Shown piece after piece: positions 63,400-63,454 of a stretch of DNA of 64,000 bases (within the stretch, counting starts at the first letter, position 1; the number at the start of each line of letters is the position of its first letter). The DNA comes from Escherichia coli (GTDB lineage: Bacteria; Pseudomonadota; Gammaproteobacteria; Enterobacterales; Enterobacteriaceae). The stretch is from NCBI RefSeq assembly GCF_024223415.1, contig NZ_CP100500.1; one strand, 5' to 3'. The position numbers were made by a program, and so were the translations under genes. The notes below the pieces were generated by a model. It was not told the origin of the DNA. It did no database searches and was given only the letters and a program-made list of their open reading frames with translations.

Positions 63400-63415
63400 A
63401 TATTTCGATTCCTGT

Positions 63416-63440
63416 AAAAAGCCCCTGACAGTGCAGGGGC
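63416..63440 (-). terminator. Intrinsic terminator-like hairpin inside the leftward phage operon
   Basis: Minus strand reads GCCCCTG-CACTGT-CAGGGGC followed by TTTTT, between the Bro-N gene stop (63455) and the next gene start (63399). Confidence 0.45.
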
Positions 63441-63454
63441 GGGATTGATTTGAA

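What the first reader, a model, noticed from the sequence alone, without database searches (positions are those of the whole stretch)
63400..63454. Terminator-like hairpin inside the leftward phage operon
Between the Bro-N antirepressor-like gene and the next gene, the minus strand carries GCCCCTG-CACTGT-CAGGGGC followed by TTTTT. This either splits the leftward genes into two transcription units or is a site where readthrough is controlled, as at lambda tL/tR sites.
Basis: inference. Interest (0 to 1): 0.3.

Follow-up and report, generated by a model that had tools for sequence, protein, structure and literature searches.

The report
Terminator ending a mobile antirepressor cassette
The hairpin is a real, textbook transcription terminator that travels with a mobile antirepressor gene cassette inserted into the replication operon of an APSE-like E. 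coli prophage; it is well conserved but ordinary in kind.

Summary
On the minus strand, GCCCCTG-CACTGT-CAGGGGC (63440-63421) is followed directly by TTTTT (63420-63416). It lies in the 55-nt gap between the stop codon of a Bro-N/Ant antirepressor gene and the ATG of an ANR-family gene.

Hairpins this strict do not arise by chance: there are 7 in the window and 0 in 30 shuffles. The others sit at gene or rRNA-operon ends.

In E. coli, Salmonella and Symbiopectobacterium relatives, silent sites in ant are near saturation. Yet the 14 stem bases and T5 never change, while the spacer, most loop positions and the downstream context vary.

Similarity between cassette copies at different genomic slots stops at the last T. 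Related prophages without ant have the DNA polymerase stop codon 5 nt from the ANR ATG. In relatives the cassette starts with a near-consensus promoter plus C4/isrK/sRNA-Xcc1 regulatory RNAs.

So the hairpin is the 3' terminator of an immI-like "ant moron", not a native punctuation mark of the operon. Downstream genes (ANR here, DNA polymerase in relatives) start 16-37 nt after the T-run with no room for a promoter. Read-through is therefore required. Whether it is passive or actively controlled is untested.

Low interest: a new member of a known kind.

The parts
63455..64000 (-). 3' part of the Bro-N/Ant-type antirepressor gene; stop codon TAA at 63457-63455; the gene runs off the window end
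   Evidence: The reading frame is open to base 64000. PHROG anti-repressor families hit residues 1-39. The C-terminal 145 aa are 77-90% identical to proteins named 'phage antirepressor Ant' or 'Bro-N domain-containing'.
63441..63454 (-). Variable spacer between the stop codon and the hairpin (TTCAAATCAATCCC)
   Evidence: Its length (9-14 nt) and sequence differ between lineages.
63421..63440 (-). Terminator hairpin: arms 63440-63434 and 63427-63421, loop 63433-63428
   Evidence: -12.6 kcal/mol. All 7 pairs are identical in 10 aligned sequences from 3 genera. Four of the 6 loop positions vary; loop positions 1 (C) and 5 (G) are invariant.
63416..63420 (-). T5 run (U-tract) abutting the stem; also the 3' boundary of the shared cassette
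   Evidence: Invariant in all copies. Similarity between copies at different slots ends at 63416/63415.
63400..63415 (-). 16-nt junction ACAGGAATCGAAATAT carrying the Shine-Dalgarno AGGA (63413-63410) for the ANR gene
   Evidence: It is present only where the cassette sits in the pol-to-ANR slot. It is absent from the empty site, where the pol stop is followed by CTCCT and then the ATG.
63178..63399 (-). ANR-family (PerC-like) small regulator gene; the first backbone gene downstream of the terminator
   Evidence: NCBIfam NF033650 at 66 bits against a cut-off of 32. Pfam PerC is a weak match. The gene directly follows the DNA polymerase in prophages lacking the cassette.
62919..63188 (-). VRR-NUC/PDDEXK nuclease gene, overlapping the ANR gene end; part of the same leftward backbone operon
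62782..62922 (-). Arc-family gene whose start overlaps the VRR-NUC end by 4 nt; the last gene of this co-directional run
   Evidence: Pfam Arc, E = 6e-10.

Best explanation
The hairpin plus T-run is a Rho-independent (intrinsic) terminator that forms the 3' end of a mobile, self-contained antirepressor cassette of the immI-like 'ant moron' type.

As seen in relatives, the cassette consists of a near-consensus sigma-70 promoter that overlaps the stop codon of the preceding backbone gene, then regulatory RNAs (C4 antisense / isrK / sRNA-Xcc1 type), then the ant gene, then this terminator. It has been dropped into the tightly packed leftward replication operon of an APSE-like E. coli prophage, between the DNA polymerase gene and the ANR gene.

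Its most likely job is insulation. It stops transcripts that start at the cassette's own promoter from running into the downstream lytic genes (ANR, nuclease, SNF2 helicase, excisionase-like HTH), and it gives the ant mRNA a defined, stable 3' end. The cassette promoter probably has to be active in lysogens to supply the immunity RNA.

The downstream genes have no room for a promoter of their own. During lytic growth, the long transcript from the immunity-region promoter must therefore pass through the hairpin, by incomplete termination or by an unidentified antitermination mechanism.

Shown here: the anatomy, the conservation pattern, the cassette boundaries, presence/absence polymorphism, and the upstream RNAs and promoter in relatives. 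Inferred: actual termination, the insulation role, and read-through.
For: (1) Anatomy. The stem is 7 bp with 6 G-C pairs, the loop is 6 nt, T5 abuts the stem, and the site is 14 nt after the stop codon.

(2) Chance. Strict hairpins number 7 in the window and 0 in 30 shuffles, and the others lie at gene or rRNA-operon ends.

(3) Purifying selection. Across 8 lineages only 20% of third-codon columns in the ant C-terminal region are invariant, and the longest invariant run in that 432-nt C-terminal stretch is 8 nt. Yet the 14 stem bases and T5 are 100% invariant, while the spacer and 4 of 6 loop positions vary.

(4) Cassette membership. Similarity between copies in four different downstream contexts ends at the last T, including two copies within a single phage.

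(5) Presence/absence. In L003 the pol stop is 5 nt from the ANR ATG, and L026 likewise has ANR directly after pol. The cassette is found in 13 of 5426 complete E. coli genomes, against 151 that match a 1.6-kb query spanning the backbone.

(6) Cassette 5' end in relatives. TTGACA-N18-TATATT (11 of 12 matches) overlaps the preceding stop codon in both cassettes of L030. C4, isrK and sRNA-Xcc1 are found above their Rfam gathering scores. The same sRNAs are reported for APSE phages in PMC7313666.

(7) Same position, different sequence. A different hairpin plus T-run follows ant in the P22-like immI loci of Klebsiella and Serratia, and another follows a TIR-like cargo gene in the same pol-to-ANR slot of phage 611R5.

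(8) Read-through need. The T-run is 16 nt from the ANR ATG here, and 30-37 nt from the DNA polymerase start in L030, L023 and L026.

(9) Precedent. The 'ant moron' concept, and P22 late transcription passing through it into the tailspike gene, are described in PMC2629481. Intra-operon terminators in P22-like phages are noted in PMC8022706.
Against: There is no transcript data, so termination efficiency is unknown.

The stem shows no compensatory changes because it never varies. Conservation therefore supports function but not pairing specifically. Not even wobble-preserving transitions are seen, which could equally mean sequence-specific recognition.

The 76-nt local fold is not significantly more stable than shuffles.

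The cassette promoter and regulatory RNAs are seen only in relatives. In this window they would lie beyond base 64000.

A terminator placed directly ahead of essential genes such as the polymerase is awkward for a pure 'insulator' reading unless read-through is substantial.
Confidence: 0.7

Rival explanations
1. It is a regulated checkpoint of the leftward operon in the lambda tL/tR sense. The terminator is efficient, and only RNA polymerase modified by a phage antitermination factor or a cis-acting RNA passes it. This would time expression of ANR, the nuclease, the helicase and excision functions.
For: Downstream genes have no promoter space, and in relatives the polymerase gene itself follows the hairpin. 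In relatives the roughly 13-kb operon crosses at least three canonical terminators, including one in its leader. Stem conservation is stricter than pairing alone requires.
Against: No N-, Q- or other antiterminator-like protein is recognisable in the first genes of the operon; PHROGs, Pfam and NCBIfam return only unknown functions. No nut- or put-like Rfam hit was found. No conserved alternative structure surrounds the hairpin. The terminator came in with a mobile cassette that most relatives lack, so it cannot be a core timing device of the operon.
Confidence: 0.2
2. It is mainly an mRNA 3'-end or processing hairpin. It would protect ant mRNA from 3' exonucleases, or protect the downstream message after cleavage, while causing little termination.
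For: A GC-rich stable stem sits right after the stop codon. In APSE-1 a related hairpin, GCCCCT-TTTGT-AGGGGC, is followed by an interrupted T-run (GATCTTTTAT). In Mixta a hairpin without any T-run occupies the position.
Against: In all E. coli, Salmonella and Symbiopectobacterium copies the T5 run is as invariant as the stem and abuts it. That is the signature of termination rather than of stabilisation alone.
Confidence: 0.08
3. It is a sequence-specific junction or recombination site that mediates movement or exchange of the cargo cassette. The terminator-like shape would be incidental or dual-use.
For: Homology between cassette copies breaks exactly at the end of the T-run. The stem is conserved at the sequence level without even wobble changes. 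Two slots in one phage carry the same element.
Against: The exact motif occurs in 120 or more viral contigs, and only about 10 of the 80 examined are ant relatives, so it is a generic terminator solution. No matching repeat marks the cassette's 5' end, which is a promoter overlapping a stop codon. No recombinase is associated with it. Other cargo in the same slot uses a different hairpin.
Confidence: 0.04
4. It is a chance inverted repeat with no function.
For: The loose scan count equals the shuffle expectation, and the local fold z-score is -1.23.
Against: The strict scan gives 0 in 30 shuffles, and the 19 invariant bases sit among saturated silent sites across three genera.
Confidence: 0.01

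Closest known systems
P22-type 'ant moron' / immI region (mnt-arc-ant), which lies inside the late operon between gene 16 and the tailspike gene
   Same: Both are antirepressor units with their own regulation, inserted into a long phage operon. Both vary between related phages. In both, operon transcription has to pass through the unit to reach downstream genes (PMC2629481; PMC8022706). Homologues of this very Ant C-terminal domain sit in such P22-like loci in Klebsiella and Serratia, each followed by a hairpin plus T-run.
   Different: Here the host operon is the early-left replication operon of an APSE-like phage, not the late operon. Regulation upstream is by C4/isrK/sRNA-Xcc1-type RNAs rather than by arc/mnt/sar. 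The terminator sequence is different.
P1/P7 immI (c4 antisense RNA - icd - ant) and Gifsy-1 isrK-orf45-anrP-isrJ
   Same: In relatives, C4 (70-76 bits) and isrK (two of three hits at or above the gathering score; L026 48.4 bits, just below) lie upstream of the ant gene. In Gifsy-1 the isrK promoter drives an sRNA, with partial read-through of its terminator into the antirepressor gene (PMC4825925). APSE phages are already reported to carry c4 and isrK next to the BRO-N gene (PMC7313666).
   Different: Those studies concern the 5' regulatory RNAs. The 3' terminator described here is not mentioned in the APSE paper ('terminator' occurs 0 times). The upstream RNAs lie outside this window and could not be checked in it.
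Lambda tL/tR terminators overridden by N-mediated antitermination
   Same: An intrinsic terminator lies inside a long leftward early operon that runs from the immunity region toward int/att, with needed genes downstream.
   Different: No N-like protein or nut site was found. The terminator is part of an optional inserted cassette rather than the conserved backbone.
Generic bacterial Rho-independent terminators
   Same: All sequence hallmarks are present. Six other strict examples in the same window sit at host gene ends and at the rRNA operon end.
   Different: None in kind. This one is unusual only in sitting 16 nt upstream of the next start codon inside an operon.

Membership tests
Rho-independent (intrinsic) terminator | G+C-rich perfect stem of about 5-11 bp with a short loop | tested here: met
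   7 bp with 6 G-C pairs, a 6-nt loop, and -12.6 kcal/mol.
Rho-independent (intrinsic) terminator | Run of T (U-tract) immediately 3' of the stem | tested here: met
   TTTTT at 63420-63416 abuts the stem and is invariant in all relatives.
Rho-independent (intrinsic) terminator | Located shortly downstream of a stop codon, on the coding strand | tested here: met
   The stem starts 14 nt after the TAA of the ant-type gene on the same strand. The opposite strand has no T-run after the stem.
Rho-independent (intrinsic) terminator | RNA 3' ends / transcript release at the U-tract | not testable with these tools
   This needs term-seq, northern blots or in vitro transcription.
Moron (independently expressed insert in a phage operon; 'ant moron') | Present in some and absent from other related phages at the same site, with the flanking genes adjacent when it is absent | tested here: met
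   In L003 and L026 the polymerase stop is 5 nt from the ANR start. The window, L001 and L023 have the cassette between them. It occurs in 13 of 5426 E. coli genomes, against 151 that match a 1.6-kb query spanning the backbone.
Moron (independently expressed insert in a phage operon; 'ant moron') | Own terminator at the 3' end | tested here: met
   The hairpin plus T5 is the last shared sequence of all cassette copies.
Moron (independently expressed insert in a phage operon; 'ant moron') | Own promoter at the 5' end | tested here: inconclusive
   Relatives have TTGACA-N18-TATATT (11 of 12 matches) at the start of both cassettes. This is a consensus match only, and the corresponding part of this window's cassette lies beyond base 64000.
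P1-type immI module (c4 RNA-regulated ant) | C4 antisense RNA and its a/b target sites upstream of ant | tested here: inconclusive
   C4 is above its gathering score in L001, L018, L026 and L030. The c4-a1b1 targets are below gathering (about 30 bits against 46.7). This region is not contained in the window.
Lambda-type N/nut antitermination site | Phage antiterminator protein and a nut (boxA/boxB) site upstream in the operon | tested here: inconclusive
   No antiterminator family matched the first leftward genes of relative L030, and no relevant Rfam hit was found. Absence of a hit is not proof of absence.

The most novel reading that the evidence does not exclude
APSE-like enterobacterial prophages may use an undescribed processive antitermination mechanism for their leftward replication operon. 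In relatives that operon crosses at least three canonical intrinsic terminators: an RprA-like leader element, and one invariant GCCCCTG/CAGGGGC-T5 hairpin after each of two antirepressor cassettes. The DNA polymerase gene starts only about 30 nt after one of them. On this reading, the strict sequence-level invariance of the hairpin would reflect a need for a strong stop to unmodified polymerase combined with efficient passage of modified polymerase.
Probability: 0.15. Interest if true: 0.5.

Novelty: new member of a known kind. Interest (0 to 1): 0.2.

Why it matters
The finding mainly helps annotation. The hairpin marks the exact 3' edge of a mobile antirepressor cassette (promoter, C4/isrK-type RNAs, ant, terminator) that hops between two slots of the replication operon in APSE-like prophages of E. 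coli, Salmonella and Symbiopectobacterium. The same slot also hosts defence-like cargo, such as a TIR-like gene, with its own terminator.

It also gives a clean natural case for asking how phages tolerate strong terminators placed directly in front of essential genes. If read-through proves to be actively controlled, that would point to an unknown antitermination system in this phage group. If read-through is passive, it is a simple example of moron insulation.

Tried and rejected
(1) Covariation test. An alignment of 10 sequences from 3 genera shows zero variation in the stem, so RNAalifold and pair counting cannot speak for or against pairing.

(2) Folding energy against shuffles for the 76-nt region was not significant, z = -1.23. 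The tool's loose terminator scan equals chance. Both were replaced by a strict motif scan.

(3) Rfam found nothing at the hairpin in the window.

(4) A scan of species-representative genomes with an Ant alignment returned only two distant loci, Mixta and Izhakiella. Their C-termini and downstream hairpins differ, so they gave little help.

(5) An exact-motif scan of viral contigs showed the motif is widespread (120 or more hits) and mostly unrelated to ant. I therefore rejected the idea that the stem sequence is a cassette-specific signature.

(6) I looked for a promoter that could serve ANR independently. None was found on the minus strand near 63400-63600. Geometry also excludes a start site between the T-run and the Shine-Dalgarno sequence.

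(7) I looked for antiterminator proteins in the relative's leftward operon and found only unknown-function families.

(8) I tried to read the primary P22 tail-expression paper (PMC255003). It is not held, so it is cited only via PMC2629481. My recollection of Berget, Poteete and Sauer 1983 is unverified memory and is not used as evidence.

Full report
**1. What is in the sequence**

On the minus strand the window reads ...CCT CGT TAA TTCAAATCAATCCC GCCCCTG CACTGT CAGGGGC TTTTT ACAGGAATCGAAATAT ATG....
- The TAA (63457-63455) ends an ORF that is open all the way to the window edge.
- The ATG (63399-63397) starts a 73-aa ORF.
- The stem arms are 63440-63434 and 63427-63421, the loop is 63433-63428, and the T5 run is 63420-63416.
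- The opposite strand has no T-run after the stem, so the element is unidirectional.

**2. Is it more than chance?**

Loose criteria are uninformative. The tool finds 11 terminator-like sites in 8 kb against 9.2 +/- 2.8 expected, though this site ranks first. The 76-nt local fold has z = -1.23.

A strict definition settles it: a perfect 7-bp stem, at least 5 G-C pairs, a loop of 3-8, and T5 abutting the stem. The whole window has 7 distinct such sites and 30 dinucleotide shuffles have none. The other six lie 9-32 nt after ORF ends, or just after the rRNA operon. So the criterion picks real terminator positions.

**3. Genomic setting**

Window bases up to about 58.2 kb are E. coli chromosome (rnc-era-recO-pdxJ-acpS-ohsC-yfhL, 99.4% identical to E. 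coli genomes). A prophage starts with an integrase at 58341.

Leftward-transcribed genes follow: an excisionase-like HTH, SNF2 helicase, Rha, an Arc pair, VRR-NUC nuclease, ANR, and then the ant-type gene at the window edge.

The SNF2 protein is 97% identical to those of E. coli phages vB_EcoM-606R2, 689R2 and 611R5, and about 73% identical to APSE-1 P41. The prophage is therefore APSE-like.

An annotated E. coli relative occupies the same yfhL site (L030). It shows a roughly 13-kb leftward operon running from the LexA-family repressor region to the xis-like gene.

**4. The hairpin belongs to a mobile ant cassette**

*Presence and absence.* Related prophages without ant have the polymerase stop codon 5 nt from the ANR ATG (L003; L026). 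Others have about 1.3 kb inserted there, ending in the hairpin (L001). The module is in 13 of 5426 complete E. coli genomes and present twice in 5 of them. By contrast, 151 genomes match a 1.6-kb query spanning the backbone.

*Several contexts.* The same ant C-terminal domain plus hairpin occurs in four different downstream contexts:
- before ANR;
- before an opposite-strand gene;
- before a 77-aa gene;
- directly before the DNA polymerase gene.

*Sharp boundary.* Nucleotide similarity between copies stops at the last T of the run (window 63416/63415) in every comparison. This includes two copies inside a single phage contig.

*Modular gene.* The N-terminal domain is swapped between Bro-N and AntA on the same C-terminal domain.

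*Cassette 5' end.* In relatives the cassette begins with TTGACA-N18-TATATT (11 of 12 matches) overlapping the stop codon of the preceding backbone gene. It carries Rfam-recognised sRNA-Xcc1, isrK and C4 antisense RNA elements upstream of ant. The APSE literature already reports c4 and isrK beside the BRO-N gene (PMC7313666). That part of this window's cassette lies beyond base 64000 and could not be inspected.

**5. Selection on the hairpin**

I compared eight lineages (E. coli clades, two Salmonella lineages, Symbiopectobacterium). Their ant C-terminal coding regions are 72-96% identical overall. Between genera, third-codon positions are only 49-60% identical.
- Only 20% of third-position columns are invariant.
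- The longest invariant run in 432 nt of coding sequence is 8 nt.
- The 14 stem bases and T5 are identical in every copy.
- The spacer (9-14 nt) and 4 of 6 loop positions vary, giving the loops CACTGT, CTCAGT, CTCAGC, CACTGA, CTAAGA, CTCTGC and CCAAGT.

This is the footprint of purifying selection on exactly the parts an intrinsic terminator needs. Because nothing in the stem varies, there is no covariation, and RNAalifold finds no conserved competing structure.

Even wobble-preserving transitions are absent. That fits a demand for a strong G-C stem, but it does not exclude sequence-specific recognition.

**6. Same position, different sequence**

- In P22-like immI loci of Klebsiella and Serratia, homologous ant genes are followed by CCCGGC-N4-GCCGGG-TTTTTT, ahead of a convergent mnt-like gene.
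- In phage 611R5, a TIR-like cargo gene in the same pol-to-ANR slot is followed by a different hairpin plus T6, and then ANR.
- APSE-1 P43 Ant is followed by GCCCCT-TTTGT-AGGGGC with an interrupted T-run.
- Mixta and Izhakiella have other hairpins.

The exact motif also occurs in 120 or more viral contigs, and most of these are unrelated to ant. The stem sequence is therefore a generic terminator solution, not a cassette-specific signal.

**7. How it most likely works**

*Shown.* The element is a canonical terminator at the 3' edge of an optional cassette that, in relatives, has its own strong promoter-like site and immunity-type RNAs.

*Inferred.* The terminator stops cassette-initiated transcription from entering ANR, the nuclease, the helicase and the xis-like gene, and it defines the ant mRNA 3' end. 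This matters if the cassette promoter is active in lysogens to supply C4-type RNA, as in P1 immI (established knowledge, cited via PMC7313666). It is not tested here.

*Read-through.* Downstream genes cannot have their own promoter:
- Only 16 nt, carrying an AGGA Shine-Dalgarno sequence, separate the T-run from the ANR ATG.
- The hairpin itself offers no -10 element.
- In L030, L023 and L026 the DNA polymerase gene starts 30-37 nt after the same hairpin.

Operon transcripts must therefore traverse the hairpin. Whether this happens by incomplete termination or by antitermination is open. No antiterminator protein or nut/put-like RNA was recognised.

In relatives, the operon leader holds a further canonical terminator within an RprA-like element. 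The operon therefore crosses at least three terminators.

**8. Comparison with what is known**

The closest concept is the 'ant moron' / immI of P22-like phages. That is an independently regulated antirepressor unit inside a long operon, through which operon transcription must pass (PMC2629481). Intra-operon terminators of unknown role are noted in P22-like phages (PMC8022706).

The upstream RNA regulation resembles P1 c4-ant and Gifsy-1 isrK-anrP, where partial read-through of a terminator has been shown (PMC4825925).

The lambda tL/tR analogy holds for the layout but not for demonstrated mechanism.

**9. Verdict**

It is an undescribed but ordinary member of a known kind. Interest is low (0.2). 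The main open question is whether read-through is passive or actively controlled.

Noticed in passing
L030 16659-16772 (minus strand); also L152 9636-9876, L061, L039: The leader of the leftward operon in related prophages and in phage 611R5 contains an RprA-like element (Rfam RF00034, 47.5 bits, below the gathering score of 70). Its 3' half is almost identical to the host sRNA RprA, including its terminator. It is preceded by a direct repeat, ACTGTAGGGGT x2, that looks like an operator. It could be a prophage-borne RprA mimic or a leader attenuator. It is not within the window.
   Followed up: partly
L152 (phage vB_EcoM-611R5) 3105-3866, minus strand: The pol-to-ANR slot that holds the ant cassette in the window holds a TIR-like domain gene in this phage. 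That gene is followed by its own, different hairpin plus T-run. The slot therefore looks like a cargo hotspot, possibly for defence genes.
   Followed up: partly
L030 12040-12064 and 7803-7827; L004/L015 and L008/L011 (same contigs): Some related prophages carry two antirepressor cassettes, one before and one after the DNA polymerase gene. Both have the identical hairpin. The N-terminal domain is swapped between Bro-N and AntA on a shared C-terminal domain.
   Followed up: yes
window 62449-62763 (+) and 62782-62922 (-): A convergent pair of Arc-family ribbon-helix-helix genes lies downstream of the nuclease gene. The minus-strand one overlaps the VRR-NUC gene end by 4 nt. This is reminiscent of the arc/mnt pair of P22 immI, and a Rha gene follows at 61377-62099.
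   Followed up: no
window 57198-57274 (-): The ohsC antitoxin sRNA of the shoB-ohsC type I toxin-antitoxin locus (Rfam 103 bits) lies in the host flank, just before yfhL and the prophage integrase (58341-59744).
   Followed up: no
window 26901-31937 (+); 2214-2576 (-): A complete rRNA operon is present: the 16S start is at 26901, tRNA-Glu is at 28528-28603, and a strict terminator hairpin is at 31918-31937. A clpB-sized ORF (23873-26458) with its own terminator precedes it. The tmRNA gene is at 2214-2576.
   Followed up: partly
window 63458-63892 (-), protein residues about 54-93: The conserved Ant C-terminal domain has no Pfam match. It gives a weak PHROG hit to an HNH-endonuclease family segment (the YRAYAWDGEKNVYVGCYPTVDEA region, AP2-like by eye). 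The function of the domain is unknown.
   Followed up: no
L030 36751-38577: In E. coli VL7S7, the prophage at the same yfhL site is riddled with IS elements and lies next to an ipaH T3SS effector gene. This suggests a decayed element in an EIEC/Shigella-like background.
   Followed up: no
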